64,000 nt of DNA from a virus (taxonomy: Duplodnaviria > Heunggongvirae > Uroviricota > Caudoviricetes). This document shows, one piece after another, positions 28,165 through 45,628 of the stretch; the first letter of the stretch is position 1; the number at the start of each line of letters is the position of its first letter. The position numbers and the translations under genes are program-made. Location of the stretch: positions 289,291-353,290 of IMG/VR virus record IMGVR_UViG_3300021431_002946. The stretch is one strand, 5' to 3'. Under the pieces are notes generated by a model. It was not told the DNA's origin and did no database searches. It saw nothing but the letters and a program-made list of their open reading frames with translations.

Positions 28165-28167
28165 GAT

Positions 28168-28203
28168 CACTGGTTATGTGTAATAGCATAACCAGTTTTT
28201 ATT
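28168..28203 (+). terminator. intrinsic terminator
   Basis: ACTGGTTATG..CATAACCAGT + T5. Confidence 0.7.
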
Positions 28204-28230
28204 TACGTATAATTTTTTATATGATATAAT
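28202..28230 (+). promoter_or_regulatory. TTTACG-N17-TATAAT promoter
   Basis: exact consensus. Confidence 0.6.
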
Positions 28231-28257
28231 ATATAAAATTTAATTAGGAGATTAATT

Positions 28258-28764: not shown

Positions 28765-29387
28765 CTCGTACAATAGATCCGTCAAATATACCATCTTCGT
28801 CTGGTTATAATTTTGGAAAACCTAATTGGACTACGCTTATTAATTCTGGTAAGTGGAATTCAAGTATGAGTTCAAAATGTTCTGCGTGGGTTACTAGTCC
28901 TTATCAAAAGATAAAGTCAAATAATAATTCACAAGAAATGGTTAATAAAGATAAATTTACTCCTTGTTTGATTGGAGTAAAAACAGGTCATTATATTGAA
29001 GTAATTAAGTCTTTAAATGAAGGCAAGTTAAATAAAACTGGTAAAATACTTTTAAAGTATTATAAAGATATTAAAAATATTGATAAGTTAATAAATAATG
29101 GAACGATAAAAAAAGTTACAGAATATGCAGAGGACATAGAAAAAGTTAATAAAACATTTGATATTCAAAATTATTGTACAATTAAAGAAGTTATAGATTT
29201 TGCATCTAAAAGTAAAATTTCAATTATTTATATTTATGATGTAGATTTTGGTCAATGGTTTGTAAATGCAACAACAATTTCATTAGCAGATTATTCTTTT
29301 TATAATTTTTATAATTCTGTATCAATTACTTTAGATGATTCTGATAGTGCAAGATTTGTTTTATTAAAGGATTTGCTTAATTATTAA
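28761..29387 (+). CDS. hypothetical protein
   Basis: 208-aa ORF overlapping the upstream stop. Confidence 0.5.
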   Translation: MTRTIDPSNIPSSSGYNFGKPNWTTLINSGKWNSSMSSKCSAWVTSPYQKIKSNNNSQEMVNKDKFTPCLIGVKTGHYIEVIKSLNEGKLNKTGKILLKYYKDIKNIDKLINNGTIKKVTEYAEDIEKVNKTFDIQNYCTIKEVIDFASKSKISIIYIYDVDFGQWFVNATTISLADYSFYNFYNSVSITLDDSDSARFVLLKDLLNY

Positions 29388-29558
29388 TGTTAATAACTAA
29401 AATAAAAGATAATATGTTAGATTTTCCTTGTATATTTGCAGTTAAAGATGGTATCTATTTTAAATAACTGTAATATTGTATTTTATGATGATAGTCAAGA
29501 CGGTTTTATAAATTTAAATGATTTATATAATATATTAAGTAAATAAGGAGTTAAAATT

Positions 29559-29705
29559 ATGAACATTGAAGAACTTTTAAACAAAATACAAAATTTTAAT
29601 GAATTTACTGCAGAAGAGAAAGCATTTTTGATACAAGCTGTAGCGGACGCTGAGAATTATAAAAGCAGAGCTAATCAAGATGAAGATATTTTTTATGGTG
29701 ATTAA
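29559..29705 (+). CDS. small hypothetical protein (48 aa)
   Basis: AAGGAG RBS; not in the ORF track. Confidence 0.4.
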   Translation: MNIEELLNKIQNFNEFTAEEKAFLIQAVADAENYKSRANQDEDIFYGD

Positions 29706-29708
29706 AAT

Positions 29709-30080
29709 ATGAAAACAGTTGCATTACTATTTATTATTCTTGCATTTATTGGATTATTTATTGTCTTATTAGCTAATACAACTAAGTTTGGTGAAATTGG
29801 AATTGGACTATTTGTATTAGGTTTAGCAGGATTTGCATTTAATATGTTAATTTTTGGATCAAATAAAATTCCTAGATTAGAAATACATGAATATACTTCA
29901 CCATATTATAATATTGCACAAATGGCGGAAGAAAATAAAGCAAAGATAGAAAATGTAACTTGTAATGAGAGATTAGTTTATACTAGAAATAAGAGAACTA
30001 ATGAAACTGAATGGATTTATTATAAACTTGATGATAGATTAATTGCTAAAGAAACTGAAGCTACTAAAAAGAAAAAATAA
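29709..30080 (+). CDS. small membrane protein (2 TM)
   Basis: hydrophobic N-terminal half. Confidence 0.5.
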   Translation: MKTVALLFIILAFIGLFIVLLANTTKFGEIGIGLFVLGLAGFAFNMLIFGSNKIPRLEIHEYTSPYYNIAQMAEENKAKIENVTCNERLVYTRNKRTNETEWIYYKLDDRLIAKETEATKKKK

Positions 30081-30092
30081 GGAGTTAGTTAT

Positions 30093-30512
30093 ATGATAAA
30101 TAGTTTTAAGGGCGAATATTATTTTTTGTCTAATTTTTATGAAGTGCCTGTTTTCTTTGATGGAATTCAATATAAAAATTCAGAAGCAGCATTTCAAGCA
30201 CAGAAATGTGAAAATTTTGAAGATAGAAAAGCATTTAGTCAATTAAATGCATCTGAAGCAAAACTTAAAGGTAGAAGAGTTAAGTTAAGATCTGATTGGG
30301 AATCAGTTAAGATTGATCTTATGACTAAGATCGTAGAAGCGAAGTTTACTCAAAATAAAGAACTTGCTCAAAAGCTCATTAATACTGGTTCTGAATATCT
30401 TGAAGAAGGTAATCATTGGGGAGATAAAGTTTGGGGAACGGTTAACGGAATAGGTCAAAATAATCTTGGCAAGATTCTTATGCAAATAAGAGATAAATTG
30501 AAAAATGGTTAA
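30093..30512 (+). CDS. NADAR-domain protein (YbiA-like ADP-ribose processing hydrolase)
   Basis: FLSNFY..FDGIQY..SEAAFQAQK..DWESVK..HWGDK aligns closely with E. coli YbiA. Confidence 0.85.
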   Translation: MINSFKGEYYFLSNFYEVPVFFDGIQYKNSEAAFQAQKCENFEDRKAFSQLNASEAKLKGRRVKLRSDWESVKIDLMTKIVEAKFTQNKELAQKLINTGSEYLEEGNHWGDKVWGTVNGIGQNNLGKILMQIRDKLKNG

Positions 30513-30522
30513 TTAAAAATTA

Positions 30523-30551
30523 TTTACAAGTAACCAAAATTAGTATAAAAT
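30523..30551 (+). promoter_or_regulatory. TTTACA-N17-TAAAAT promoter
   Basis: motif read directly. Confidence 0.5.
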
Positions 30552-30636
30552 AATATCAATACAAATTTTGGAGGTATACTATGAAATGTTAGTTTTGTGG
30601 AAGTAAGGGAATTTTAATTAATGAAAGGAAAAAGAA

Positions 30637-31656
30637 ATGTCAAGAAATTTTAATTTTTCAGAACTAAACTCAAATAGAAATAAGATGCCTATAATTGCTA
30701 AGCTGATTATAGCAGGTATTATTATTGTTCTATTAATTATTTGCGGGTTTAGATGTTTTTATTCAGTAAATGAGCAGCATAATGCAGTAGTAACTCAGTT
30801 TGGTACTGTACTTAAGGTAGATACTGCAGGTTTCTATTTTAAGGCACCTTGGCAGTCAGTAAAGAAAGTTGATATGACTACGCATGGTACGCCAATTGGT
30901 TATTCAATTCAAGATGGTCAGAATATTCCTAATACAGATGATGGTATTATGATTACAGAAGATTACAACTTCTTGAATATTGACTTTTATATGGAATATG
31001 CTGTATCAGATCCTATTGCATATTTGTATAATACAAAAAATCCTGAACTTGTTTTAAGAAGTATTGCTCAGGCAAATATTAGAACTATTGTTTCTAACTA
31101 TACAGTTGATGAAGCAATGACAACTGCAAAGGGACAGATTCAGGCAGATATTAAACAGGCAATTATTGATGAGCTTGATAAGAATAATATCGGTCTTAAG
31201 ATTATCAATATTACAATTCAGGACTCAGAACCTCCTAAGGATGAAATTAAAGCTGCATTCCAGTCTGTAGAAAATGCAAAGCAGAATGCAGATACTGCAA
31301 TGAATAAGGCTAAGGAATATCAGAATAGTCAGCTTCCTGCAGCTCAGGCTAAAGCTGATAATATTGTTAAGCAGGCTGAAGCTGATAAGGCTGCAAGAAT
31401 TGCAGAAGCTAAAGGTCAGGTTGAAAGATTTAATAAGATGTATGAAGAATATAAGCAGTTTCCTCTTGTAACTAAGACAAGACTTTTCTATGAAAAGATG
31501 GAAAAGGTACTGCCTGGTTGTAAGATTATTATTACAGATGGAAAGACTTCTACTGTATATCCATTGGATTCTTTTACAAAGTCTAATACAAAACCGCCTT
31601 ATGCAACATCTAATACAACAACTGATACGACTACAACTGATGGAGGAAATGGTTAA
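30637..31656 (+). CDS. hflK: SPFH/band-7 protein, HflK-like
   Basis: N-terminal TM, SPFH core, Q/A-rich coiled coil, S/T-rich tail. Confidence 0.7.
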   Translation: MSRNFNFSELNSNRNKMPIIAKLIIAGIIIVLLIICGFRCFYSVNEQHNAVVTQFGTVLKVDTAGFYFKAPWQSVKKVDMTTHGTPIGYSIQDGQNIPNTDDGIMITEDYNFLNIDFYMEYAVSDPIAYLYNTKNPELVLRSIAQANIRTIVSNYTVDEAMTTAKGQIQADIKQAIIDELDKNNIGLKIINITIQDSEPPKDEIKAAFQSVENAKQNADTAMNKAKEYQNSQLPAAQAKADNIVKQAEADKAARIAEAKGQVERFNKMYEEYKQFPLVTKTRLFYEKMEKVLPGCKIIITDGKTSTVYPLDSFTKSNTKPPYATSNTTTDTTTTDGGNG

Positions 31657-31657
31657 T

Positions 31658-32533
31658 ATGAAGAAGTATATAATTGGAATTTTAGCAGTTATTGCAGTAC
31701 TTATTGGAATTATTATCTTCTTGGCTTCTGCATATACAGTAAAGACCAAGGAATCTGCAATTGTAGTAAGACTTGGTAAAGCTCAGACAATTGTAACTGA
31801 GACTGGTCTTCATACACATACACCTTTTATTGAGTCAACAGTAAAGATTTATATGGGTGAAGTTTTGTATGATATGCCTAAGTCAGATGTAATTACTTCA
31901 GATAAGAAATCAATGATTGCAGATAATTATGTTATTTGGGAAGTTACAGATCCTTTGAAGTATTACCAGACACTTGGTGGTGTTAAGGGTAGAGCAGAAG
32001 AAAGAGTTGAAGCTGCAGTTTATAATGCAACTAAGAACACAATTTCTTCAATGACTCAGGAAGAAATTATTGCTGCAAGAGGTATGACTCTTACAAATGC
32101 AATTACAACAGCGTCTAATTCTGATATTGCTCAGTATGGTATTAATATTAAAATTGCTGAAATTAAGGCGCTTGATCTTCCTGACAATAACAAAGCTGCA
32201 GTTTATAATAGAATGATTTCTGAAAGACAGAATATTGCAGCAGGTTATAAGGCGCAGGGTGATAGAGAAGCACAGATTGTTATAAATGAAACAGATAAGC
32301 AGGTTGCAATTATAATTGCTGATGCTGAAGCAAAGGCTGCAATTTCTAGAGCTGAAGGCGAAGCTGAGTACATGAAGATTTTGTCAGCTGCTTATAATGA
32401 TAAGGATAAGGCTGCATTCTATAATTATCTTAGAGGTCTTGATGCTCTTGAAGCTCTTGCAAAGTCAGACTCTACAATCATTCTTGATAAGAACTCTGAA
32501 TATGCAAAGATTCTTTATGGAATTAGCAAGTAA
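31658..32533 (+). CDS. hflC: SPFH/band-7 protein, HflC-like
   Basis: RBS-supported ATG at 31658 (the 31490 TTG/ATG extension is rejected); TM + SPFH domain. Confidence 0.7.
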   Translation: MKKYIIGILAVIAVLIGIIIFLASAYTVKTKESAIVVRLGKAQTIVTETGLHTHTPFIESTVKIYMGEVLYDMPKSDVITSDKKSMIADNYVIWEVTDPLKYYQTLGGVKGRAEERVEAAVYNATKNTISSMTQEEIIAARGMTLTNAITTASNSDIAQYGINIKIAEIKALDLPDNNKAAVYNRMISERQNIAAGYKAQGDREAQIVINETDKQVAIIIADAEAKAAISRAEGEAEYMKILSAAYNDKDKAAFYNYLRGLDALEALAKSDSTIILDKNSEYAKILYGISK

Positions 32534-32556
32534 AAATAATTTTATATTATAATGAA

Positions 32557-32586
32557 AGAGCCTATTTTATATAGGCTCTTTTTTAT
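32557..32586 (+). terminator. intrinsic terminator
   Basis: AGAGCCTAT..ATAGGCTCT + T7. Confidence 0.7.
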
Positions 32587-32615
32587 TTACAATTTGATTA
32601 CAATGATATTATAAT
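32586..32615 (+). promoter_or_regulatory. TTTACA-N18-TATAAT promoter
   Basis: motif read directly. Confidence 0.55.
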
Positions 32616-32754
32616 ATTTTTAATGAAGTAAATTATAAAGAATTTAAGAAGTTTATTTGTATTATGAATGAAAATATACAAATATATGGATCAGAACAAG
32701 CATTCATTATGAATGCTATAGAGTATGACTGCTATATTTTAAAGGTTAAATGAT

Positions 32755-33216
32755 ATGGATATTGGTAGTGGAAATGGTTATCCAGCTGGAAGTTTATCTA
32801 ACTTTGCACCTCATAGATTTATAATTGATGGAGTAGAATGCGCTTCTATGGAAGGCTTTTTACAGTCATTGAAATTTAGCAATCCTGACATGCAAAAAGA
32901 AGTTTGTAAGTTAGTAGGTAGAGCAGCTAAATCTAAAGGTATTAATAAAAACTGGCAGCAAAAACAGATTCTTTATTGGCAAGGAAAAACCTATAAGAGA
33001 AATAGTCAAGAATATCAAGATTTACTTGATAAAGCTTTTAATGCTTTAGCTGAAAATACATCATTTCAAAAAGCATTATTGGCTACTGAAAATGCTACTT
33101 TGACTCATAGTAAAGGTAAAAATAAAATTACAGAAACTGTTTTAACTACTAGAGAATTTATTTCTAGATTAAATAGAATAAGAAGTGAATTAAAGAATAA
33201 AGATAATACTAAGTAA
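32755..33216 (+). CDS. second, divergent NADAR-domain protein
   Basis: SLSNFAPHRFIIDGVECASMEGFLQSLKF and FQKALLATENATLTHS align with YbiA. Confidence 0.7.
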   Translation: MDIGSGNGYPAGSLSNFAPHRFIIDGVECASMEGFLQSLKFSNPDMQKEVCKLVGRAAKSKGINKNWQQKQILYWQGKTYKRNSQEYQDLLDKAFNALAENTSFQKALLATENATLTHSKGKNKITETVLTTREFISRLNRIRSELKNKDNTK

Positions 33217-34223: not shown

Positions 34224-34251
34224 AATAAAATCAAAACTAAAATATATAAAA

Positions 34252-34280
34252 ATGGTCTACTTTTGTAGATCATTTTTTAT
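34252..34280 (+). terminator. intrinsic terminator
   Basis: ATGGTCTAC..GTAGATCAT + T7. Confidence 0.65.
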
Positions 34281-34308
34281 TTACGCATGTTATTATAAAA
34301 GATATAAT
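34279..34308 (+). promoter_or_regulatory. TTTACG-N18-TATAAT promoter
   Basis: motif read directly. Confidence 0.55.
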
Positions 34309-34452
34309 AAAATTAATTTTATAATAAAGGAGTCTAATTATGCAGTTTGGAATATCTTTTATTTTAACAATTTTTGTAATTTTGATTATTATTTTTACTA
34401 GAGGATAAAAAAATAATTCCATTTTAGTATAATATATGATATAATAGATTAT

Positions 34453-35043
34453 ATGAAATATACATCAGAACAAATACATAAAATTATTGATGATTATGAT
34501 ACTTTATGTGATAAAGTATTAGTTCATTTGCGTAAAAATTATGATCCTGAACTAGACTTAATAGATGAAATTTCGTGTATTTATCTAAATACAGAATCAA
34601 TATTTTTAGTTAGAGCTGCTAAATTTGAAAACTATAAAAAAATAGAAAGAAGATATAGATTTAGAGAGTCATTATTCTTTGAAAATAAAGCGTATAATAT
34701 AATTAAAAAATATAAAAATTTATGCTTCGAAATACAAAATAGATTATGTACAGATAAAGTATTTATATTGACTACTAATTATTATATATATAAAGTTTAT
34801 TATGTAAAAACAAGAAAGCATCAAAATTTAATAAAATATATAATAAATGATGCTTTTTATACACGAAATACTATTGCTAAAAATAATTATATACCAGAAT
34901 TTTGGTTAACATGTTCAAAAAAAGATTTAAATAGCGCAAAAAATAAAACAAACGCTATATTAAAAATTATAAATAAAAATTTAGATAATTATTATGAAAT
35001 AAGAGAAGAAACGCATAATATAAAAGATGAAGAAGAAACTTAA
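34453..35043 (+). CDS. paralog 1 of a 5-gene tandem family (hypothetical, MKYT.. start, apparently leaderless)
   Basis: shared motifs IIDDYDxLC, YK(V/I)YY(V/I)K, (E/N)WL(E/N)YSx(E/D)QL(D/E)R; TATAAT 9 nt upstream of the ATG, no SD. Confidence 0.55.
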   Translation: MKYTSEQIHKIIDDYDTLCDKVLVHLRKNYDPELDLIDEISCIYLNTESIFLVRAAKFENYKKIERRYRFRESLFFENKAYNIIKKYKNLCFEIQNRLCTDKVFILTTNYYIYKVYYVKTRKHQNLIKYIINDAFYTRNTIAKNNYIPEFWLTCSKKDLNSAKNKTNAILKIINKNLDNYYEIREETHNIKDEEET

Positions 35044-35629
35044 TACAAAGTCAATAACATATTATAAAAATCGTGAAGATATACAAAAAATTATCAATGA
35101 TTATGATAATCTTTGTAGGTTTGTAGAATCTCTTTTAAAAGATGTGTATAGTGATCTTATTGAATTTGATTATCTTGAACAAATTATATGTATAAAAAAT
35201 ACTGAACTTTTAGAGTATTATGCAATATTATGTATACATAAAAATAAAAAAACAGTAAGAACAAAATTTAATATATATTTAGGTGAATTAATAAGATTTA
35301 AGCCAGACATAGAATGTATACTTAATCGTTATTATGATGTATGTACTAATATATATCATATATTGCAAAGATTGAATATAAGATGCGGAATAAATGAATT
35401 TGTATATAAAATATATTATATAAAAAATACTAAAAAGCAAGGACGTCTTGCAGTTCTTACTTATAATCTAGAAACAGATAAGATTAAGAATTGTTTGTCT
35501 ATTGTAGATAAATGGTTAGAATATTCAAATGATCAATTAGACAGAGTATATCTTATATTGACTACATTACCTTTTGAAGATCAATATCTTGCGCTTAGAC
35601 ACATAACTCATGATGATATAGGAAATTAA
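35027..35629 (+). CDS. paralog 2 of the tandem family
   Basis: IINDYDNLC, KIYYIKNTKKQ, EWLEYSNDQLDRV. Confidence 0.55.
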   Translation: MKKKLNTKSITYYKNREDIQKIINDYDNLCRFVESLLKDVYSDLIEFDYLEQIICIKNTELLEYYAILCIHKNKKTVRTKFNIYLGELIRFKPDIECILNRYYDVCTNIYHILQRLNIRCGINEFVYKIYYIKNTKKQGRLAVLTYNLETDKIKNCLSIVDKWLEYSNDQLDRVYLILTTLPFEDQYLALRHITHDDIGN

Positions 35630-35633
35630 AATA

Positions 35634-36266
35634 ATGCATATAAGAATATATATAAAGAAAACAATAAAAGAATATGAAAACTTACTTAAAAAAGTAGGTA
35701 AAATTGTTAAGAATAAAGTTAATGTAGAATTTGATTTTGTTGATAGTGTATATTATACAGAGTATAAGTCTGAATGGCTTAAAAATATTAAAAAAATTTT
35801 AGTTACTGTATATTCTGCAAAAAATAATGAGCATTGTCAATATGAAATTGACACAGAAGAATTAACTAATCACGATATTAAAATAATTAAGAATTATAGA
35901 AAATTGTGCGATAAAGCTACTAGTATTTATAAAAGCACACAAATATCAAAATATCTTATTTTTAATAATACTTATTTTTATAAAACTATTATGTTTAATC
36001 CTGTAAATGAAAATGCAAATGTATATAAAATATATTATTCAACAAATAATACAAATAAATTAAGTTTAAAATTTTATGACCCATCTATAAAGTTTTATTT
36101 TGCAAAACATAATATAATTCATGATGATTGGTTAGACTCTAATATAACAAATTATACTTTTAATAACTATATAACAAATTTATATCGTATAATATTTAAA
36201 CGCTATAAACAATCTTCAGATTTTATAAAATTAAGAGCAATGACGCATAAAGGCATATTAGATTGA
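35634..36266 (+). CDS. paralog 3 of the tandem family (more divergent)
   Basis: KIYYSTNNTNK and DWLDSNITNY motifs. Confidence 0.5.
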   Translation: MHIRIYIKKTIKEYENLLKKVGKIVKNKVNVEFDFVDSVYYTEYKSEWLKNIKKILVTVYSAKNNEHCQYEIDTEELTNHDIKIIKNYRKLCDKATSIYKSTQISKYLIFNNTYFYKTIMFNPVNENANVYKIYYSTNNTNKLSLKFYDPSIKFYFAKHNIIHDDWLDSNITNYTFNNYITNLYRIIFKRYKQSSDFIKLRAMTHKGILD

Positions 36267-36856
36267 TTACGTATATGAAATATACTGAAGAATATCTACA
36301 ACAAATTATAGATGATTATAATGAAGTAATTAAGAAAATTTATCATTTACTTCAGTATCAAAATTATGACATTATAGAGTATATTCTCTATAATGAATAT
36401 TATAATGTTATAGAAGTTTATGTTTATTCTATTGACACTCATTATAAATTACGTATAAAGCAACTTGATAAGTGTGAAATAGGCGCAGAAGTTTTTTCTA
36501 AAAAAGAAATTAAAGCAATAAAAGATTATATTGAAGTTTGTGATAAACTTACTAATATTATTAGATATGTATATAGGAATTATTCATATTTAAACGTAGT
36601 TAGATTTTATTTTGTATCAAATAAATTAAATTTAAAAAGAAAATTAGCTTTTGGAACTACGCATATAGTTAAAAATTCACAAACTGGTTTACATAAATAT
36701 GAACATTGTCATATATCTCCAAAATGGTTATCTTATTCTGATGAGCAGCTAAATAGAGTAAGATATAAATTAGGTATAATAAGAGCTGGAATAAAAAAAT
36801 ATAATGAAGTTTATTCGCGTTTAATAAGTAAAACACATCTTAACGTGACTAATTAA
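36263..36856 (+). CDS. paralog 4 of the tandem family
   Basis: MKYTEEYLQQIIDDYNEV and WLSYSDEQLNRV. Confidence 0.55.
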   Translation: MITYMKYTEEYLQQIIDDYNEVIKKIYHLLQYQNYDIIEYILYNEYYNVIEVYVYSIDTHYKLRIKQLDKCEIGAEVFSKKEIKAIKDYIEVCDKLTNIIRYVYRNYSYLNVVRFYFVSNKLNLKRKLAFGTTHIVKNSQTGLHKYEHCHISPKWLSYSDEQLNRVRYKLGIIRAGIKKYNEVYSRLISKTHLNVTN

Positions 36857-36890
36857 TTAGACTAAAATTACAATTTATTTACAAAAAATA

Positions 36891-36919
36891 TTTACGCATT
36901 TAAAAAAGTATATTATAAT
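36891..36919 (+). promoter_or_regulatory. TTTACG-N17-TATAAT promoter (a second TTTACA -35 lies 13 nt upstream); the -10 ends 11 nt before the ATG, so the mRNA is probably leaderless
   Basis: motif read directly. Confidence 0.55.
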
Positions 36920-36929
36920 AATATAATAT

Positions 36930-37472
36930 ATGAAGTATACACATGAGAATATACAATCTATTTTAAATGATTATAATAAGTTGGTTAAAAAGGTTGAACA
37001 CCAGCTTATTAAAAAGGGTAAATGCTTATACGTAAGAGGAATTATTTTATCTCATAATGAAAAATATATGCATATAGCATATGAAGTAGTTATTAATAAT
37101 CATACTAAAACTATATTAGAGTCTGTTAATATTAAGGATTTTAATAAGAATGATATTATGAGATTAAAGAAATATAGAGCAGTATATGATATAATAGATA
37201 AAATTCTTATACTTGCAGAAATAACTACATTAAATACGAGTACTGGTTTATTAAAATTTTATTATGAACCAACTAGAAAGAATAAGTTTGCAGTCATATT
37301 ATTTGATATAAAAAAATCAACTACATCAAAAGCTACTTTATATATACCTGAAAATTGGTTAAATTATTCTAATGAACAATTAGAAAGAGCTATTTCAAAA
37401 TATAATAATATAAAAAATTATTATAAACAATATAATGAAATAAGATCAAATACACATAAGGATATTACTTAA
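36930..37472 (+). CDS. paralog 5 of the tandem family
   Basis: MKYTHENIQSILNDYNKL, KFYYEPTRKNKF, NWLNYSNEQLERA. Confidence 0.55.
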   Translation: MKYTHENIQSILNDYNKLVKKVEHQLIKKGKCLYVRGIILSHNEKYMHIAYEVVINNHTKTILESVNIKDFNKNDIMRLKKYRAVYDIIDKILILAEITTLNTSTGLLKFYYEPTRKNKFAVILFDIKKSTTSKATLYIPENWLNYSNEQLERAISKYNNIKNYYKQYNEIRSNTHKDIT

Positions 37473-37490: not shown

Positions 37491-39338
37491 ATGGATTTTT
37501 GGTTATTTAAAGGAATAACAGAATTTGTTTATTGGTACCCCGCATTGATGGCTATGCTGTGGGTACTTGGCTCTCTTATTTTCTATTTTTCAAATGAAAG
37601 AAAGGGAGCATTGCCAATAGACGATCTGCCTTTTGTTTCAATCTTAATGCCTGCACATAATGAAGGTGACATTCTTTATAATGTTGTAGAGGAAATGACA
37701 AAATTAAATTATCCTAATTATGAGATTATTCTTATTAATGATGGTAGTTCAGATAATACTGCAGAAGTATTGAAAAATATTGTAAAAGCTTATGATATTG
37801 TAAGAGTTATTGATTTACATCCAAATTGCGGTAAAGCAAATGCATTATATCTTGGAACTATTGCAGCTAAGGGTGAAATCTTAGTAGGAGTAGATTCAGA
37901 TTCATATTTGGATAAAAATGCTCTTAGATACTTAGTTTCACATTTTACAAATAAACATAATGGTGAAAGAGTCGGCGCTGTAACTGGTAATCCTCGTGTA
38001 AGAAATAGAGGTACATTACTTAGTAAGTTACAGTTGTGTGAATATGCATCAATTATTTCTTTAATTAAGAGAACTCAGAGAGTCTTAGGTAAAGTAATGA
38101 CAGTCTCTGGAGTTTGTGTTGCATATAGAAAAAGAGCTCTTATGGAATGTGGTTTCTGGGATAGAGACATGATGACAGAAGATATTGCTGTTACATGGAA
38201 ATTAGAGAAAAACTTCTGGGATGTTAGATATGAACCAAGAGCTCTTTGTTGGATGCTTGTTCCTGAAACAGTAAAAGGTCTTTGGAAACAAAGAAAAAGA
38301 TGGGCTTCAGGCGGTCTTGAAGTTATTTTTAGACATTATGATATTTGGGGTTCTTGGAAGAGAAGAAGAATGACTCCAATATATCTTGAACAGGTTTGCT
38401 CTTTCTTTTGGTCTGTTTGTTGGCTAATTCTGACTATTATTCTTTTAATAATGGAATTTAATAGTCAGCATGTTTTTACAGAATATTTATGGAAGAGTCA
38501 ATTCTTATCATTTGTATGTTTATTTCAGTTTGGAGTAGCAATGTGGCTTGAACAACATTATGATAAGAATATTCTTAAATCAACTTGGTCAGTTATTTGG
38601 TACCCTCTTATTTATTGGTATGTTAATGTATTTATTACATTAGCAGCTCTTTTGAAAGCTATACTTCCTAAAAAGAAGCTTGCTACATGGAAGTCTCCTG
38701 ATAGAGGCATAACTCAAATGAATAAGACTGATACTGAAGAAGTCATAATAAAAACAGATAATGAACTTAATGTCACTTATGATGATATTAAAATGAGTAG
38801 ACTTATTCAATCTATTGATACAGATGGTACAAAAGATCTTTCTTCTCCATTGATTGATGGTACAATTGAAAATCCTGTTACTGATCCTCATTCTACAAAA
38901 CATATTGAAACTAGAACTGTTCAAAAGAAATGGAAAACTGTAATTGAAATTATTTTGACTGTAATAGCATGGATTTATATGCTTATATATTGGGCATTTA
39001 TGATTTATGGAATTATTTGTGATAAGTTAGGTAAACCAATTAAAGAATGGTGGATTTATAATACAAATACAATAAGACAAACAGAGCATCATTTCTATAT
39101 TTTATTTATTGCAATATTAATTGAAATCTTAGTTCTTATTATTTGGAAAGAATATAATAAGCATAGATTTGGTAAAAAAGATAGAAGAAAGTTCAAGCCA
39201 CATGTAACAGAAGAAGAGCTTGATGAATATTTCAAATTAGATGAGGCACTGGCTTATTCTTTGCATCATGATAAATATATTGAGCTACTAGAAAATCCTA
39301 TACCTCAAGGAATGGGACAAGGCAGAAATCATAAATAA
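37491..39338 (+). CDS. processive family-2 glycosyltransferase (PgaC/IcaA/HasA/cellulose-synthase-like) with extra C-terminal membrane domain
   Basis: DGSSDNT, DSD, QRKRW (QxxRW) motifs; multiple TM helices. Confidence 0.8.
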   Translation: MDFWLFKGITEFVYWYPALMAMLWVLGSLIFYFSNERKGALPIDDLPFVSILMPAHNEGDILYNVVEEMTKLNYPNYEIILINDGSSDNTAEVLKNIVKAYDIVRVIDLHPNCGKANALYLGTIAAKGEILVGVDSDSYLDKNALRYLVSHFTNKHNGERVGAVTGNPRVRNRGTLLSKLQLCEYASIISLIKRTQRVLGKVMTVSGVCVAYRKRALMECGFWDRDMMTEDIAVTWKLEKNFWDVRYEPRALCWMLVPETVKGLWKQRKRWASGGLEVIFRHYDIWGSWKRRRMTPIYLEQVCSFFWSVCWLILTIILLIMEFNSQHVFTEYLWKSQFLSFVCLFQFGVAMWLEQHYDKNILKSTWSVIWYPLIYWYVNVFITLAALLKAILPKKKLATWKSPDRGITQMNKTDTEEVIIKTDNELNVTYDDIKMSRLIQSIDTDGTKDLSSPLIDGTIENPVTDPHSTKHIETRTVQKKWKTVIEIILTVIAWIYMLIYWAFMIYGIICDKLGKPIKEWWIYNTNTIRQTEHHFYILFIAILIEILVLIIWKEYNKHRFGKKDRRKFKPHVTEEELDEYFKLDEALAYSLHHDKYIELLENPIPQGMGQGRNHK

Positions 39339-39371: not shown

Positions 39372-39926
39372 ATGGATTTAAATCAAATTTCAAAGTTTAT
39401 AAGTTTGATTCTTCGACATAAACCTGAAACAATAAATATTACGCTTGACTCACATGGTTGGGCAAATGTAGATGAACTTATTAATGGTATTGCTAAGCAA
39501 TATAAAGGTTTTAATATGAATATGCTTGAAGAAATTGTCAGAACAGACAATAAACAGAGATATTCATTTAATGAAGATAAAACAAAAATTAGAGCTAATC
39601 AAGGACATTCTATTAAAGTAGATGTTGAACTTGAAGAAAAAGAACCGCCTACAGTATTATATCATGGTACGGCAACAAAGTCAATAAATAGTATTTATGC
39701 TCAAGGTCTTAAATCAATGTCAAGACTTTATGTACATCTTTCAAAAGATATTGAAACTGCAACTAAAGTCGGTTTGAGACATGGAGAACTTGCAATTATT
39801 GTAATTGATGCACAAAAAATGTATAAAGATGGTTATAAGTTCTATCTTTCTGCAAATGGTGTATGGCTTACAGAAAAAGTTCCAGTAGAATACTTTAAAG
39901 AATTGTTATATGGTAATTCAATATGA
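39372..39926 (+). CDS. kptA: RNA 2'-phosphotransferase Tpt1/KptA
   Basis: ILRHKPE.., [18 protein letters not shown] motifs of the KptA family. Confidence 0.85.
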
Positions 39927-40306
39927 TTTACAAAGATATAGATGATAGAGGCATTAAAGTTATACTTAAAGAAGATAATATAATAATAAGTGAATGCAAA
40001 ATTTCTTTAAGTAATGGAATTTGGAGTATTACTGAGTGGTTTACTACAAAATTTTATATGAACCAAGGTTATGGTAAACAAACAATGAAAGAAGCAGTTA
40101 ATTCTCTATACGAAGCTTTTGGAATGCCTGAACAAATTAGATATAATTGGAATGGTGTAAATGAATATGTTTATCTTTGGTTAAAAAAACATTTTAATGC
40201 AGTTCCATTACATCCTCCAATTATTGACTCTGAATGTGATAGTTGGGAAGATCATATCTATATTCTAGATAAAATTAAATTTATAAATTATTTTAAAACT
40301 GAATAA
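39923..40306 (+). CDS. hypothetical protein
   Basis: 127-aa ORF. Confidence 0.5.
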
Positions 40307-40322
40307 TTAAAAATTTTTAATA

Positions 40323-40358
40323 AAAAGATACTTTTTAATAAGTATCTTTTATTTTTTA
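40323..40358 (+). terminator. intrinsic terminator
   Basis: AAAGATACTT..AAGTATCTTT + T-run. Confidence 0.7.
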
Positions 40359-40386
40359 TTTACAACGTATATATAAATATGATAAT
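40358..40386 (+). promoter_or_regulatory. TTTACA-N17-GATAAT promoter
   Basis: motif read directly. Confidence 0.5.
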
Positions 40387-40420
40387 ATATATAAGATATA
40401 AAATAAAAGGAGTGATGCTA

Positions 40421-40804
40421 ATGAAACTTAAAGATATTTCAGATATGACACAGTTCCTTACATACAGATGTTACTGTCCAGGTGAAATTTACGATAGAAC
40501 TGGTTTCTTCTTTGAGATTTTTAAGGAAGATGATGATTGTGAAATTCTTGTAGAAGGTTCTTACAAGGATGATAAGGTAACAGCAGTTGTATGTAAAAAT
40601 CAGATTCTTTGTTTTTGGTTTAATGAAGATGGTACCATTATGGATGCCACTAGATATGATGCTACACCAAATAATACAGAAGAAATTGTAAAAGTTTTGA
40701 CAGGTAAGAAAACAGCTATTGATCCTGATGACTTTAAGCCTGGTCAGACTGAAGCAAATCTTAAGGAAATTCTTGGTATAGCTGATGCTATTATGATTTC
40801 TTAA
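40421..40804 (+). CDS. hypothetical protein
   Basis: AAAAGGAG RBS 8 nt before ATG 40421; the listed 40379 start lies inside the promoter. Confidence 0.5.
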   Translation: MKLKDISDMTQFLTYRCYCPGEIYDRTGFFFEIFKEDDDCEILVEGSYKDDKVTAVVCKNQILCFWFNEDGTIMDATRYDATPNNTEEIVKVLTGKKTAIDPDDFKPGQTEANLKEILGIADAIMIS

Positions 40805-40845
40805 ATATAGTATTTAATAAAATATATAAAAAGGAGATAAAAAAC

Positions 40846-42063
40846 ATGAAGTTACCTCAGATTATTAACAGCCTTTTAGAGAGTGATTTGTACAAATTTT
40901 CTATGGGTCAGGCAATTATGATTAAGCATCCTGAATATATGACTACTTGGTCTTTTAAGTGTAGAAATAAGGATGTTAAGTTTACACCTGAAATGGTAGA
41001 AGAGATTAAGGAACAGATTAAGGCATATTGTAAGCTTAGATTTACTGAAGACGAACTTGAATATTTGAATAATATTCCTTGGTTTAAGGGAAGTTATATT
41101 AATTTTCTTAGACTTTGGCAGCCTAGATATGAAGATTTTGAAATTGGAACTGATGCAGAATGTGGATTGGCAGTTGAAACTAAGGGAACTTGGCTCAATA
41201 CATCTATGTATGAAATTCCTACTCTTGCAATTGTAAATGAAGTTTATTTTAGAATGGCTTATGATTATGATAAGTTGTTTGAAAGCTTTAAGAAGAGACT
41301 TGACGAGAAGTATGAAAAGCTTCATAGTTCTAAGTGGTATCTTGGAGTATTTTCTGAGTTTGGTCTTAGACGTAGACTTTCTGCAGAAGCTCAGGAACTT
41401 GCTATAGAAAAGTTTAGTCATCTTAATGATACAATGCATTGTTCTAGCAAGTTTATTGGTACATCTAATGTATATCTTGCAAAGAAGTATGGACTTACTC
41501 CTGTAGGTACAATGGCACATGAATGGATCATGTGTGTAGGTCAGGGAGATCATTCTCATAATCCTGCATATTCTAATAGATTTGCTCTTAATGATTGGGT
41601 AGATGTATATGGAATTAAGAATGGTATTGCACTTACTGATACAATTACAACAGATTGTTTCCTTAGAGATTTTGATGATAGATTTGCAACATTGTTTAGT
41701 GGTGTAAGACATGACTCTGGTGACCCTATTGAATGGGGCGAAAAGATGATTAAGCACTACGAAAAGCTTGGAATTAATCCTAAAACAAAGACTTTGTTGT
41801 TCTCTGATAGTTTGAATTTTGAAAAAGCAGATGCTATTTGGAGACATTTCCATGATAGAATTAATGTTGCTTTTGGTATTGGTACTTATATTGCAAATGA
41901 TACTGATGTACCTGCACTTAATATTGTTATGAAGACTACTTTGTGCAATGGTATGGATGTTGCTAAGGTTTCTGATACACCTGGTAAGGGTATGTGCAAG
42001 AATCCTGATTATGTTGATTATCTCCAGAGAACAATTAAATGGAGAATGGAAAATGATAAGTAA
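40846..42063 (+). CDS. pncB: nicotinate phosphoribosyltransferase
   Basis: GTSNVYLAKKYGLTPVGTMAHEW and GVRHDSGDPIEWGEKMIKHYEKLGINPKTKTLLFSDSL closely match E. coli PncB. Confidence 0.9.
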   Translation: MKLPQIINSLLESDLYKFSMGQAIMIKHPEYMTTWSFKCRNKDVKFTPEMVEEIKEQIKAYCKLRFTEDELEYLNNIPWFKGSYINFLRLWQPRYEDFEIGTDAECGLAVETKGTWLNTSMYEIPTLAIVNEVYFRMAYDYDKLFESFKKRLDEKYEKLHSSKWYLGVFSEFGLRRRLSAEAQELAIEKFSHLNDTMHCSSKFIGTSNVYLAKKYGLTPVGTMAHEWIMCVGQGDHSHNPAYSNRFALNDWVDVYGIKNGIALTDTITTDCFLRDFDDRFATLFSGVRHDSGDPIEWGEKMIKHYEKLGINPKTKTLLFSDSLNFEKADAIWRHFHDRINVAFGIGTYIANDTDVPALNIVMKTTLCNGMDVAKVSDTPGKGMCKNPDYVDYLQRTIKWRMENDK

Positions 42064-42071
42064 GTGATAAT

Positions 42072-42587
42072 ATGGCAAATATGTATTTAGTTTGTGGAAT
42101 TAGTGGCGGTGGTAAGTCTGTCTTAACGGATAGACTTATTACTGCTAATCCATATTTAACAAAATTTGATCCTGATATGTATTATGCTAAAATTAATGGT
42201 GATGAATGTGACAGATCAAATTGGTTTGATGTATGGATGTCATTATATCAAGATATTCATAAAGCAGAATTAGCAAATAAAGATATAATTGTTACAACAA
42301 ATTCATTAACTGTATCGCAAAGAACTCAGTTTTTAGAATGGTTTCCAACATTTACACATCATATTTTATGGGTAACTGCACCAAAAGAACAATGTCTTGA
42401 AGGTAATAATAGCAGACGCAGACATGTACCTGAAAAGAGATTATTACAGCAATGGGAAGAAATGGAATTTCCTAATGCAAGTGAAAAAGGTTGGGAAACT
42501 ATAACTCAAATAACTAATTTCTGGGAAGAAGATAATTATATTATTTTTAATCTTAAAGGTGATATTAAAAATTATTTAATTTTTTAA
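42072..42587 (+). CDS. P-loop kinase (ribosylnicotinamide-kinase-like or polynucleotide-kinase-like; uncertain)
   Basis: Walker A GISGGGKS; 171 aa. Confidence 0.5.
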   Translation: MANMYLVCGISGGGKSVLTDRLITANPYLTKFDPDMYYAKINGDECDRSNWFDVWMSLYQDIHKAELANKDIIVTTNSLTVSQRTQFLEWFPTFTHHILWVTAPKEQCLEGNNSRRRHVPEKRLLQQWEEMEFPNASEKGWETITQITNFWEEDNYIIFNLKGDIKNYLIF

Positions 42588-42675
42588 AACGGAGTATTAT
42601 AATATGTATAAGATTTCCGATTTTCTTTTTAATCATGAACCGCTAAATAATATAAACAAGAAGGAAGAATAAATA

Positions 42676-43029
42676 ATGGATTGGCATATACCTGAAATTC
42701 AGAAAGATATGAAAACATTTCTTAAAACTATTAATATAGATAATGCTGTAAATGAAAAGTGTAAGTTTATGGTTCATTGGGAATGTATTGATAATAGAAT
42801 AAATGTTTGTATTAGATGTGATTTTAAGAATTATGGAGAATATGATCTTTATCCTTATCAAAAGATAAGTTCTATTGAAAATATAGAGCTTCCTTCTGAT
42901 ATTTTCAAAAAGATCGAAGTAATATCAGGTTCAATTCTTGACTCCTTTGATGAATATATTATGAATTATGCAAAAGAAAAGAATGTAACAATTAAAAGAT
43001 TAAATAATGAAATGTGGCAAGTTTTGTAA
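42676..43029 (+). CDS. hypothetical protein
   Basis: 117-aa ORF. Confidence 0.45.
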   Translation: MDWHIPEIQKDMKTFLKTINIDNAVNEKCKFMVHWECIDNRINVCIRCDFKNYGEYDLYPYQKISSIENIELPSDIFKKIEVISGSILDSFDEYIMNYAKEKNVTIKRLNNEMWQVL

Positions 43030-43041
43030 GGAGGTATAAAT

Positions 43042-43551
43042 ATGAAGAAACTTTTAGTAATTGTAGATATGCAGAATGATTTTGTAACTGGAGCTCTTGC
43101 AAATCCAGATGCAAAGAAGATTATAAAGAAGATTAAGAAGTATGCAGAATCTTTTGATGGAGATATTGTTTTCACAAGAGATACACATACTAAGAATTAT
43201 ATGGAGACTCAGGAAGGTAAGAATTTGCCTGTACCACATTGTATTAGAGGAACTGAAGGTTGGCAGATTGTAGATGAACTTAAAGATATTCCTGCAAAGT
43301 ATTATTTTAATAAGCATACATTTGGTTCTACTGATCTTGCAAAGGTGATTAGGAGAGAATATGCAGATGCAGAAATTTATTTTTGTGGAACATGTACAGG
43401 AATTTGTGTAATTAGTAATGCAATGCTTGCAAAGGCAAGTGCTCCTGAGGCTAAGATCAATGTTCTTGGTAAGCTTTGTGCTTGTGTTACACCTGAATCT
43501 CATCATACAGCACTTGAGGCAATGAAGATGTGTCAGATTAAGGTAATTTAA
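43042..43551 (+). CDS. pncA: nicotinamidase (isochorismatase family)
   Basis: VDMQNDF, conserved Cys in CGTCTGICV. Confidence 0.8.
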   Translation: MKKLLVIVDMQNDFVTGALANPDAKKIIKKIKKYAESFDGDIVFTRDTHTKNYMETQEGKNLPVPHCIRGTEGWQIVDELKDIPAKYYFNKHTFGSTDLAKVIRREYADAEIYFCGTCTGICVISNAMLAKASAPEAKINVLGKLCACVTPESHHTALEAMKMCQIKVI

Positions 43552-43563
43552 TAGAGGACTAAT

Positions 43564-44232: not shown

Positions 44233-44234
44233 AT

Positions 44235-44699: not shown

Positions 44700-44760
44700 G
44701 GTAATGCATATGTACGATAATTGTGATGATTTTTATGGAAAATTTAAGGAGAAATAATTT

Positions 44761-45186: not shown

Positions 45187-45251
45187 TAAAGTTTGTGAAG
45201 AATATAAGCAACACATATCTTGAATTATTTATGCTTTAAGGAGTAAAAAGA

Positions 45252-45623: not shown

Positions 45624-45628
45624 AAATT

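What the first reader, a model, noticed from the sequence alone, without database searches (positions are those of the whole stretch)
34453..37472. Tandem array of five divergent paralogs (180-210 aa) with apparently leaderless mRNAs
Five consecutive ORFs share an N-terminal I(I/L)(D/N)DY(D/N)xL(C/V)xKV block, a central K(I/V)YY(I/V)K.TKK block and a C-terminal (E/N)WL(N/E/S)YS(N/D)(E/D)QL(D/E/N)R(V/A) block. Elsewhere identity is low, which points to old duplications under diversifying pressure. Three begin MKYT and sit 9-11 nt after a TATAAT box with no Shine-Dalgarno, so they are probably leaderless, unlike the rest of the window. Arrays of diverged paralogs in phages often encode host-takeover or anti-defence decoys. 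The function is unknown.
Basis: seen in the sequence. Interest (0 to 1): 0.6.

Follow-up and report, generated by a model that had tools for sequence, protein, structure and literature searches.

The report
Orphan paralog array in huge phage
Five neighbouring genes in a giant phage-like genome are real, ancient copies of one protein family found nowhere else. Most of them change unusually fast, and at least one seems to be made from an mRNA with almost no leader, but what the proteins do is still unknown.

Summary
The five ORFs are real, collinear paralogs. All 15 pairs, including a sixth copy, beat 500/500 shuffles, and BLASTP E-values reach 9e-9. They encode basic, soluble proteins of about 190 aa.

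AlphaFold models (pLDDT 78-81) show a duplicated helix + three-strand module, then C-terminal helices ending in an invariant Thr-His. PDB, BFVD, Pfam, PHROGs, NCBIfam and PADLOC give no match. An exhaustive HMM search of 1.84 billion proteins finds only this locus's orthologues, plus a sixth paralog in a sister lineage.

The window belongs to a 0.38-0.47 Mb phage-like genome, inside an NAD+/ADP-ribose gene island.

In three lineage comparisons the array has pN/pS 0.46-0.51 against 0.08-0.11 for flanking genes (p <= 3e-11). A-C are fastest (0.45-0.87, with in-frame indels); E is conserved (0.11-0.13).

A genome-specific promoter consensus, TTTACR-N17-TATAAT, has 12 hits, all on the coding strand (0.21 expected). 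Two lie here:
- one before a conserved 22-aa hydrophobic sORF upstream of A;
- one 10 nt before E's ATG, the only protein-gene case without an SD leader.

So E is probably (near-)leaderless, A possibly, D not. Function is unproven; a fast-evolving host-interaction binder family is my best guess.

The parts
34248..34277 (+). Intrinsic-terminator-like hairpin (13 bp stem, UUUU loop, then a U-run) that closes the upstream DUF1963 gene and marks the start of the array's transcription unit
   Evidence: RNA fold -14.2 kcal/mol, z = -8.1, 0/200 shuffles fold as well. Identical in L005 and L001 and present in L012.
34280..34308 (+). Promoter P1: TTTACG-N17-TATAAT
   Evidence: One of 12 matches to TTTACR-N17-TATAAT in the window. 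All 12 are on the + strand, against 0.21 expected and 0/100 shuffles reaching 12. The -35 reads TTTACA in L005 and L012, and the -10 is conserved.
34340..34408 (+). Candidate small ORF encoding a 22-aa hydrophobic peptide, MQFGISFILTIFVILIIIFTRG. An AAGGAG SD lies at 34327-34332, 7 nt before the ATG.
   Evidence: Intact in L001, L005 (two synonymous changes plus S6A) and L012 (Q2L plus one synonymous change). No family match.
34437..34445 (+). Extended -10-like TGATATAAT, 7 nt upstream of the ATG of A. It is a possible second promoter that would give a leaderless A mRNA.
   Evidence: It has no TTTACR -35 at 17 nt. The motif is not enriched in the window (16 found, 12.9 expected). The same sequence also occurs in E's coding region at 37187. 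It is 100% conserved in L001, L005 and L012.
34453..35043 (+). Paralog A (196 aa): no SD, and the fastest-evolving copy in two of the three lineage comparisons
   Evidence: pN/pS 0.55-0.76, with in-frame indels between lineages. AF2 model pLDDT 77.7, same topology as E.
35027..35629 (+). Paralog B (200 aa). Its ATG lies 17 nt inside the 3' end of A and has no SD. It carries a 12-aa N-terminal extension.
   Evidence: pN/pS 0.45-0.60.
35634..36266 (+). Paralog C (210 aa), the most divergent copy. It has a weak AGGA 10 nt upstream and a 20-25-aa insertion after the central helix.
   Evidence: pN/pS 0.58-0.87.
36275..36856 (+). Paralog D (193 aa from the ATG, MKYT...). It starts 8 nt after C's stop and has neither an SD nor a promoter, so translational coupling is the likely route.
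   Evidence: Gene calls in L001, L005 and L012 use this ATG. pN/pS 0.30-0.75.
36891..36919 (+). Promoter PE: TTTACG-N17-TATAAT, ending 10 nt before the ATG of E
   Evidence: It is the only one of the 11 consensus promoters that precede protein genes to lack an SD-bearing leader; the others have 27-55 nt. The hexamers and both spacings are invariant in six loci.
36930..37472 (+). Paralog E (180 aa), the conserved member and a predicted (near-)leaderless gene. An in-frame stop lies one codon upstream of the ATG.
   Evidence: pN/pS 0.11-0.13. AF2 pLDDT 81.1, pTM 0.75.

Best explanation
**What it is (shown).** The locus is a lineage-restricted multigene family in a very large (0.38-0.47 Mb) phage-like genome, probably with a Gram-positive host.
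- It holds five tandem genes, six in one sister lineage.
- Each encodes a basic, soluble protein of about 190 aa.
- Each protein is itself a duplication of a long-helix + three-stranded-sheet module, followed by C-terminal helices ending in an invariant Thr-His.
- The copies are ancient. All are kept intact in at least four lineages.
- They evolve at graded rates. A-C change fast, mainly in loops and sheets and with in-frame indels. E is strongly conserved.

**How it is expressed (inferred from sequence).**
- After a terminator, consensus promoter P1 drives a 22-aa hydrophobic sORF and reads on into A-D.
- A starts without an SD, possibly from its own extended -10 promoter as a leaderless mRNA.
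- B and D, which also lack an SD, are probably translated by coupling to the gene before them. C has a weak AGGA 10 nt upstream.
- A second consensus promoter, PE, ends 10 nt before E's ATG. E's transcript therefore has a leader of about 0-4 nt, and it probably continues into the PgaC-PgaD glycosyltransferase gene.

**What it does (inferred, unproven).** I propose that the proteins are stoichiometric binding proteins aimed at host, or competing-element, components: host-takeover or counter-defence effectors. E would handle a conserved target or act as the core member. A-C would track variable targets.
For: **Paralogy and real coding**
-.

**Fold**
- Two AF2 models share the topology H-EEE-H-EEE-h-H-H (pLDDT 81 and 78).
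- The N-half and C-half profiles align, matching IIDDYDTLCDKV to IIKKYKNLCFEI (hhalign P = 5.5e-5).

**Orphan status**
- A word-indexed profile search of 5.8 billion proteins returned 7 hits, all from this lineage.
- An exhaustive HMMER search of 1.84 billion representatives also returned 7: the five paralog clusters, a fragment, and the sixth paralog.
- Pfam, PHROGs, PADLOC and NCBIfam gave nothing.
- PDB sequences gave nothing.
- No loci were found in IMG/VR, JGI metagenome contigs, GTDB genomes or INPHARED.

**Rates**
- Array vs flank pN/pS was 0.46 vs 0.10 (p = 6e-20), 0.48 vs 0.11 (p = 3e-11) and 0.51 vs 0.08 (p = 2e-12).
- Changed positions make up 17.5% of loop positions, 14.6% of strand positions and 9.1% of helix positions.

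**Copy number**
- L005 carries a sixth paralog F. The window, L001, L007 and L013 do not, and L012 apparently does not either.
- The window's E/PgaCD junction matches L005's E sequence up to GATAT and L005's F tail after it.

**Expression**
- Promoter consensus and spacing.
- SD survey.
- Terminator.
- No structure between E and PgaCD.

**Context**
- The neighbours are NUDIX, NADAR, gp30.3, DUF1963, Tpt1, NAPRTase, an isochorismatase-family (nicotinamidase-like) protein, an NMNAT-NAD synthase fusion and YpsA.
- This is the gene set reported for 'NAD-jumbo phages' of animal guts, where it is linked to counter-defence (PMC11662467).
Against: - No experiment, homolog or fold match points to any function. 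The binder/counter-defence role rests on evolutionary rate, orphan status, copy-number change and neighbourhood, and none of these is specific.
- Gene-wide dN/dS is below 1 for all copies. A is statistically indistinguishable from neutral (binomial p = 0.19), so relaxed constraint explains much of the signal.
- Between the two closest lineages (99% identity) the array is not significantly different from its flanks (p = 0.23).
- The proteins are basic, unlike the classic acidic DNA-mimic anti-restriction proteins.
- Leaderless transcription is inferred from promoter geometry alone.
- Phage identity is inferred without any virion gene.
Confidence: 0.4

Rival explanations
1. The array is redundant duplicates drifting under relaxed constraint. 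There is no arms race. The high protein-level rate and extreme AT-richness of A-C simply reflect weak selection on dispensable accessory genes. E, and perhaps D, carries whatever function exists.
For: - All gene-wide pN/pS values are below 1, and A does not differ from neutral.
- The array has the lowest GC in the region at all three codon positions (19-23%), as expected under AT mutation pressure with weak selection.
- F is present or absent among close relatives.
Against: - Copies that share only 20-33% identity have all stayed as intact ORFs in four lineages.
- Every indel seen is in frame.
- The invariant residues (Y15, Y82, W143, T175, H176) are kept in every copy, including F.
- B, C and D each show significantly fewer nonsynonymous changes than neutral expectation (p = 0.04, 0.04 and 0.006).
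Confidence: 0.25
2. The proteins bind nucleic acid: RNA or DNA chaperones, or regulators of phage gene expression, built from tandem alpha-beta repeats in the manner of tandem dsRBDs or PUR/Whirly repeats.
For: - pI is 8.3-9.6 and net charge is +3 to +13, more basic than the neighbouring proteins.
- The top Foldseek PDB hits, though not significant, are tandem dsRBD proteins, MRP1/MRP2, Whirly, PURA and PCNA.
Against: - Those hits have E >= 0.012 and TM 0.14-0.22.
- Lys-rich basic proteins are expected anyway at 20% GC.
- Five or six divergent copies with fast-changing sheets and loops fit poorly with one conserved nucleic-acid ligand.
Confidence: 0.15
3. The proteins are accessory or regulatory partners of the co-transcribed PgaC-PgaD-like polysaccharide synthase, or of the membrane more generally, together with the 22-aa hydrophobic peptide.
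For: - E, or F in L005, always sits 18 nt upstream of the PgaCD gene. No terminator or notable structure lies between them.
- The unit opens with a small hydrophobic peptide gene.
- Two Band_7/SPFH membrane proteins lie just upstream.
Against: - The paralogs have no signal peptide or hydrophobic segment (GRAVY -0.3 to -0.7).
- Known Pga/Ica systems have no such partners (my own knowledge, not tested).
- Adjacency in a genome where every gene lies on one strand is weak evidence.
Confidence: 0.08
4. The proteins are virion-associated internal or ejected proteins. Paralogous families of this kind are known among head 'inner body' proteins of giant phages such as phiKZ.
For: They are basic, small, paralogous, lineage-specific proteins in a giant phage. 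The analogy is from my own knowledge.
Against: - The array lies in a metabolic/accessory region next to sigma-A-type promoters, not in a structural module.
- No virion gene is nearby.
- No PHROG head or packaging match was significant.
Confidence: 0.07

Closest known systems
Lineage-specific, fast-evolving accessory gene clusters of large phages (host-takeover or anti-defence regions, e.g. anti-CRISPR loci and the T4/T5/SPO1 early-gene blocks)
   Same: - The proteins are small and have no homologs outside a narrow phage lineage.
- The genes are clustered, preceded by host-type promoters and variable in content between close relatives.
- Protein-level evolution is elevated.
- The array sits next to NAD+/ADP-ribose genes, which PMC11662467 links to counter-defence in jumbo phages.
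   Different: - Here all members belong to one family, five or six ancient paralogs, rather than a mix of unrelated genes.
- No regulator of the Aca type is present.
- No defence target is known.
- The proteins are basic, not acidic mimics.
Leaderless phage and bacterial mRNAs (e.g. lambda cI from PRM). They are characterised by a -10 box immediately upstream of the start codon and direct 70S binding (PMC5397173).
   Same: E has a complete promoter whose -10 ends 10 nt before the ATG, with no SD. The spacing is invariant in six loci.
   Different: - The predicted start would leave about 0-4 nt of leader rather than exactly zero.
- No transcript 5' end has been mapped.
- The rest of this genome is strongly SD-dependent: 40 of the 61 other ORF starts have an SD core of at least 4 nt.
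Tandem cystatin-like / NTF2-like alpha+beta roll proteins (e.g. latexin, a two-domain protein inhibitor of carboxypeptidases)
   Different: - Only one module (about 55-70 residues) aligns.
- The family has three strands per module, not four or five, plus an extra C-terminal helical hairpin.
- No sequence relationship was found.
SUKH (SMI1/KNR4) and other immunity-protein families that occur as tandem arrays of divergent paralogs in polymorphic toxin loci
   Different: - No SUKH profile match was found.
- No toxin gene is adjacent.
- The setting is a phage-like genome rather than a bacterial toxin locus.

Membership tests
Any curated protein family (Pfam-A, PHROGs v4, NCBIfam 20, PADLOC-DB 2) | Significant profile-HMM match | tested here: not met
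   No hit reaches a gathering score. The best E-values are 0.002-0.9, on short stretches.
Leaderless mRNA genes | A promoter -10 element placed so that transcription starts at, or within a few nt of, the start codon | tested here: met
   - E: met. TTTACG-N17-TATAAT ends 10 nt before the ATG and is conserved in six loci.
- A: inconclusive. TGATATAAT lies 7 nt upstream, but without the consensus -35 and with no motif enrichment.
- D: not met.
Leaderless mRNA genes | No Shine-Dalgarno sequence upstream of the start | tested here: met
   A, B, D and E have no SD core of 3 nt or more within 3-13 nt of the ATG. By contrast, 40 of the 61 other ORF starts in the window have a core of at least 4 nt.
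Leaderless mRNA genes | An experimentally mapped 5' end at the start codon | not testable with these tools
   No transcript data were available. This needs dRNA-seq or 5'-RACE.
SUKH / SMI1-KNR4 immunity proteins | SUKH fold or profile match, plus an adjacent polymorphic toxin gene | tested here: not met
Cystatin-like / latexin-type tandem inhibitors | Cystatin-like fold in both modules | tested here: inconclusive
Tandem dsRBD / PUR-Whirly nucleic-acid-binding repeats | Structural superposition with a significant score | tested here: not met
   Foldseek vs PDB: E >= 0.012, TM 0.14-0.22.
Acidic DNA-mimic anti-restriction proteins (Ocr/ArdA type) | Strongly acidic surface (low pI) | tested here: not met
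   pI 8.3-9.6, net charge +3 to +13.
2H phosphoesterases (considered because of the Thr-His motif, the internal duplication and the neighbouring Tpt1) | Two H-x-T/S-x motifs, one per lobe | tested here: not met
Diversity-generating retroelement targets / DNA-level cassette systems | Template/variable DNA repeats and a reverse transcriptase | tested here: not met
   The longest DNA repeats within the array are 42-51 nt stretches at the homologous 5' gene ends, at 69-81% identity. There is no near-identical TR/VR pair.

The most novel reading that the evidence does not exclude
The array is a new protein fold family that a giant phage uses as an adaptive set of inhibitors against variable host defence or takeover targets.
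- One conserved 'anchor' member, E, would be expressed from a leaderless mRNA in a host where translation otherwise depends strongly on SD sequences.
- Copy number would be adjusted by recombination between the conserved C-terminal Thr-His-Lys-Asp-Ile codons.
Probability: 0.2. Interest if true: 0.65.

Novelty: new member of a known kind. Interest (0 to 1): 0.4.

Why it matters
If the function were found, this would add a new protein family, possibly a new fold, to the phage-host interaction repertoire of uncultivated giant phages from animal-associated microbiomes.

It would also be a clean natural example of paralog subfunctionalisation, with one conserved copy and four fast ones.

The promoter result has practical use now. 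TTTACR-N17-TATAAT marks transcription units in this genome, and E is a specific, testable candidate for leaderless translation in an otherwise SD-dependent system.

As it stands, the finding is a well-characterised orphan family without a function.

Tried and rejected
**AT-rich artefact: rejected.** Shuffle tests, composition-corrected BLAST, ORF length and purifying selection on D and E all argue against it.

**Searches for relatives that found nothing outside the lineage**
- INPHARED phage records, by DNA and by tblastn.
- IMG/VR.
- GTDB genomes.
- Word-indexed profile search of 5.8 billion proteins.
- Exhaustive HMMER search of 1.84 billion representatives.

**A more distant DUF1963 homolog (58% identity, L011)** sits in a different neighbourhood with no array, so synteny could not be extended.

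**TATAAT or TGNTATAAT alone as promoter evidence: rejected.**
- Generic sigma-70-like sites are at chance level in this DNA (54 found, 49.6 expected).
- TGNTATAAT is not enriched.
- Only the composite TTTACR-N17-TATAAT is informative.

**A second leaderless candidate at ATG 46527** (TGATATAAT + 11 nt): rejected on reading the sequence. A GAGG and a second in-frame ATG follow 18 nt downstream, so this is probably a normal SD-led start.

**Promoter regions P1 and PE as relics of paralog 3' ends.** Both contain ACGCAT, which is the Thr-His codon pair in A and C. Nucleotide alignments are not significant (z <= 2.8), so I dropped the idea.

**Internal duplication at the single-sequence level** is significant only for D (z = 3.2) and marginal for B (z = 2.5). 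It rests mainly on the profile alignment and the predicted topology.

**Rfam:** only the two tRNAs.
Full report
**1. Observation**

The region holds five consecutive + strand ORFs:
- A, 34453-35043
- B, 35027-35629
- C, 35634-36266
- D, 36275-36856 (the ORF lister starts it at a TTG at 36263; the alignment and the gene calls in three relatives favour the ATG at 36275)
- E, 36930-37472

A multiple alignment is collinear from end to end.

The paralogy is statistically solid.
- Composition-corrected BLASTP links E to D (9e-9), to A (7e-7) and to B (1e-6). It links A to B (4e-4) and C to D (8e-3).
- All 15 pairwise local alignments, including a sixth paralog found elsewhere, exceed every one of 500 shuffles, with z = 4-16.
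- Mononucleotide shuffles of this 3-kb stretch give stop-free runs of 55 codons on average and 102 at most, against the observed 180-210.

So the AT-rich low-complexity artefact named as the refuting outcome is excluded.

The invariant residues among the five window paralogs and their orthologues (8 sequences) are two equivalent Tyr (Y15, Y82), Y111, W143-L144 and a C-terminal T175-H176, in E numbering. When the sixth paralog is added, five stay invariant and Y111 and L144 become nearly invariant.

**2. The proteins**

They are soluble and basic: pI 8.3-9.6, net charge +3 to +13, GRAVY -0.3 to -0.7.

AlphaFold2 on the small family alignment gives confident models for E (pLDDT 81.1, pTM 0.75) and A (77.7, 0.72). 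Both have the same order of elements:
- a 24-residue helix, then three strands;
- a 23-residue helix, then three strands;
- a short helix at the WL motif;
- two C-terminal helices that end at the Thr-His.

The two halves are related.
- A profile-profile comparison aligns the N-terminal helix motif (IIDDYDTLCDKV) with the central one (IIKKYKNLCFEI), hhalign P = 5.5e-5.
- At the single-sequence level this is significant only for D.

I therefore call the internal duplication probable, not proven.

**3. Relatives**

A profile search of 5.8 billion proteins returned seven hits, all orthologues in near-identical contigs. An exhaustive HMMER search of 1.84 billion cluster representatives also returned seven: the five paralog clusters, a fragment, and a 173-aa protein.

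That 173-aa protein is a sixth paralog, F. It lies between E and the downstream gene in locus L005.

Searches with no significant result:
- Pfam, PHROGs, PADLOC, NCBIfam and PDB sequences.
- Foldseek against PDB and BFVD: nothing at E <= 1e-3, TM <= 0.34.
- INPHARED, IMG/VR, JGI metagenome contigs and GTDB genomes: no locus.

**4. Genome context**

The window's exact A and E proteins occur on contigs of 380,505 and 467,278 nt. No ORF of 120 aa or more that is not nested in or overlapping a longer + strand ORF lies on the - strand.

The window carries:
- two tRNAs;
- a UvsX-like recombinase, a DnaC-like loader and a DnaB helicase;
- T4 gp30.3 and NADAR proteins;
- a sortase, a 4120-aa ORF and a prepilin-type protein;
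- a complete-looking NAD+ salvage set: NAPRTase, an isochorismatase-family (nicotinamidase-like) protein and an NMNAT-NAD synthase fusion, along with NUDIX, Tpt1/KptA and YpsA.

This matches the 'NAD-jumbo phages' described from animal gut metagenomes, where these genes are linked to replication, repair and counter-defence (PMC11662467).

Phage identity and a Gram-positive host are inferences. The host inference rests on the sortase, the strong AGGAG SDs and the sigma-A-type promoters. No virion gene lies in the window.

The array sits between a DUF1963/YwqG (TYPP-superfamily) gene and a PgaC-PgaD fusion glycosyltransferase. PMC4275035 proposes that TYPP proteins are chaperone-like.

**5. Evolution**

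I compared three diverged lineages, each against flanking genes: the window, L005 and L012. Flanking DNA is about 93-97% identical.

| Comparison | Array pN/pS | Flank pN/pS | Fisher p |
|---|---|---|---|
| window vs L005 | 0.46 | 0.10 | 6e-20 |
| window vs L012 | 0.48 | 0.11 | 3e-11 |
| L005 vs L012 | 0.51 | 0.08 | 2e-12 |

Synonymous divergence is similar in array and flanks. The ratios are graded across the copies:

| Copy | pN/pS range |
|---|---|
| A | 0.55-0.76 |
| B | 0.45-0.60 |
| C | 0.58-0.87 |
| D | 0.30-0.75 |
| E | 0.11-0.13 |

Further points:
- Within the array, indels occur only in A-C (one flanking gene, Band7a, has a single-codon indel), and all of them are in frame.
- Changed positions make up 17.5% of predicted loop positions, 14.6% of strand positions and 9.1% of helix positions.
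- The low-confidence loops of the A model (residues 102-107 and about 130-145) coincide with A's variable segments.
- A codons 101-144 have 22.3 nonsynonymous against 1.7 synonymous differences, a ratio of 3.1. The counts are small.
- Gene-wide, A is not distinguishable from neutral (p = 0.19). B, C and D are mildly constrained, and E is strongly constrained (p = 1e-7).
- The array is the most AT-rich coding DNA in the region at all codon positions.

Copy number is polymorphic. F is present in L005. It is absent from the window, L001, L007 and L013, and apparently from L012. F is as divergent from the other copies as they are from each other, so it is not a recent duplicate. The window's E/PgaCD junction reads like L005's E up to ...ACACATAAGGATAT and like L005's F tail afterwards. 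This fits recombination between the conserved Thr-His-Lys-Asp-Ile codons.

**6. Expression signals**

Generic sigma-70-like sites occur at chance frequency in this DNA (54 found, 49.6 expected), and TGNTATAAT is not enriched. A TATAAT near an ATG therefore means little on its own.

The composite TTTACR-N17-TATAAT is different. It occurs 12 times in the window, always on the coding strand, against 0.21 expected.
- Ten copies are followed by a 27-55-nt leader with an SD and an ATG.
- One precedes tRNA-Gln.
- One, PE at 36891-36919, is followed by E's ATG after only 10 nt, with no SD.

PE and both spacings are invariant in six loci. The second TATAAT, 2 nt from the ATG, is TATAGT in three of them. 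An in-frame stop lies one codon upstream of E's ATG, so the start is fixed. E's mRNA should therefore carry about 0-4 nt of leader.

The other consensus promoter, P1 (34280-34308), follows a strong terminator hairpin (-14.2 kcal/mol, z = -8.1). P1 drives a 22-aa hydrophobic sORF with a good SD (34340-34408), which is conserved in all lineages.

Starts of the other copies:
- A's ATG lies 44 nt after the sORF stop and 7 nt after a TGATATAAT that lacks the consensus -35. A leaderless A transcript is possible but not required.
- B starts 17 nt inside A.
- C starts 4 nt after B's stop and has a weak AGGA 10 nt upstream.
- D starts 8 nt after C's stop, with no promoter or SD, which suggests translational coupling.

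Overall, four of the five array genes lack an SD, whereas 40 of the 61 other ORF starts have a core of at least 4 nt. A, D and E also share a 51-nt block starting at TAT-ATG-AAR-TAT-AC, at 71-80% DNA identity. That is far above the rest of the genes.

The literature supports the reasoning. A -10 box immediately upstream of a start codon marks leaderless mRNAs, which bind 70S ribosomes directly. S1-dependent SD-independent initiation may not operate in some Firmicutes (PMC5397173).

**7. Interpretation**

Shown:
- a real, ancient, lineage-restricted paralog family with a predicted duplicated alpha+beta architecture;
- graded and elevated protein-level evolution;
- copy-number polymorphism;
- an unusual promoter-to-start geometry for E.

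Inferred:
- (near-)leaderless expression of E;
- translational coupling for B and D, with C possibly helped by its weak SD;
- a role as binding proteins in host takeover or counter-defence.

The functional inference is weak, at about 0.4. The rivals are relaxed constraint on redundant copies, nucleic-acid binding, partnership with PgaCD or the membrane, and virion-internal proteins. None is excluded.

**8. Novelty and score**

Tandem families of fast-evolving orphan genes are a familiar feature of large phage genomes, so I file this as a new member of a known kind.

The family itself is undescribed and has no confident fold match. The leaderless E and the conserved upstream micro-ORF are specific, testable details.

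Interest: 0.4.

Noticed in passing
window 34340-34408 (+): A candidate 22-aa hydrophobic micro-protein, MQFGISFILTIFVILIIIFTRG. It has an AAGGAG SD and its own consensus promoter, sits directly after a terminator, and is conserved in four lineages with mostly synonymous or conservative changes. It could be a small membrane protein or a toxin-like peptide. No family match.
   Followed up: partly
window, 12 sites: 401, 2748, 22622, 25181, 28202, 34280, 36891, 49974, 51504, 52803, 53708, 54345 (+): A genome-specific promoter consensus, TTTACR-N17-TATAAT. All 12 matches are on the coding strand, against 0.21 expected by chance. Typical leaders are 27-55 nt with an AGGAG-type SD. One site drives the tRNA-Gln/tRNA-Lys pair.
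   Followed up: yes
L005 7085-7606 (between E and PgaCD): A sixth, highly divergent paralog F (173 aa) is present in one sister lineage and absent from the window and several others. Junction sequences suggest gain or loss by recombination between the conserved C-terminal THKDI codons.
   Followed up: partly
window 53343-53699 (+): A 118-aa orphan protein with a normal SD weakly matches the second module of the family, including PEKWL..L..DEL. HMM score is 15.9 bits against a maximum of 9.8 in 1000 shuffles; hhalign P = 5e-4, probability 31%. It may be a single-module relative. It too has no homologs outside this lineage.
   Followed up: partly
window 27658-33216 and 39372-47762: A dense NAD+/ADP-ribose gene island: RNaseH-like, NUDIX, NADAR, gp30.3, Tpt1/KptA, NAPRTase, AAA_33 kinase, an isochorismatase-family (nicotinamidase-like) protein, PRAI-like, YpsA (SLOG) and an NMNAT-NAD synthase fusion. 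This matches the 'NAD-jumbo phage' gene set of PMC11662467.
   Followed up: partly
window 37491-39338 (+): A 615-aa fusion of a PgaC-like family-2 glycosyltransferase with a PgaD-like C-terminal domain, encoded in a phage-like genome. It lies 18 nt downstream of E with no terminator between them. A phage-borne PNAG-type synthase could alter the host surface.
   Followed up: no
window 7453-23731 (+): A cluster with a DUF7601 protein, a sortase, a 4120-aa ORF (10114-22476) and a protein with a prepilin N-terminal methylation motif. It looks like a Gram-positive-style surface or pilus module inside the phage-like genome.
   Followed up: no
L012 6861-7280: One lineage carries an extra 139-aa orphan gene between DUF1963 and the terminator/P1, so the boundary upstream of the array is also a site of gene-content change.
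   Followed up: no
window 34283, 35011, 36243, 36659, 36894 (+): Five of the window's ten + strand ACGCAT hexamers lie in this 3.2-kb locus. Two are the Thr-His codons of A and C, one is a Thr-His pair inside D, and two are the -35 blocks (TTTACGCAT) of P1 and PE. A test for relic homology between the promoters and the gene 3' ends was not significant. Unexplained.
   Followed up: partly
window 34450-34500, 36272-36322, 36927-36977 (+): The first roughly 50 nt of A, D and E, starting 3 nt before the ATG (TAT ATG AAR TAT AC...), are 71-80% identical at the DNA level, although the proteins share only about 30% identity overall. This could reflect constraint on the N-terminal helix or on translation initiation.
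   Followed up: no
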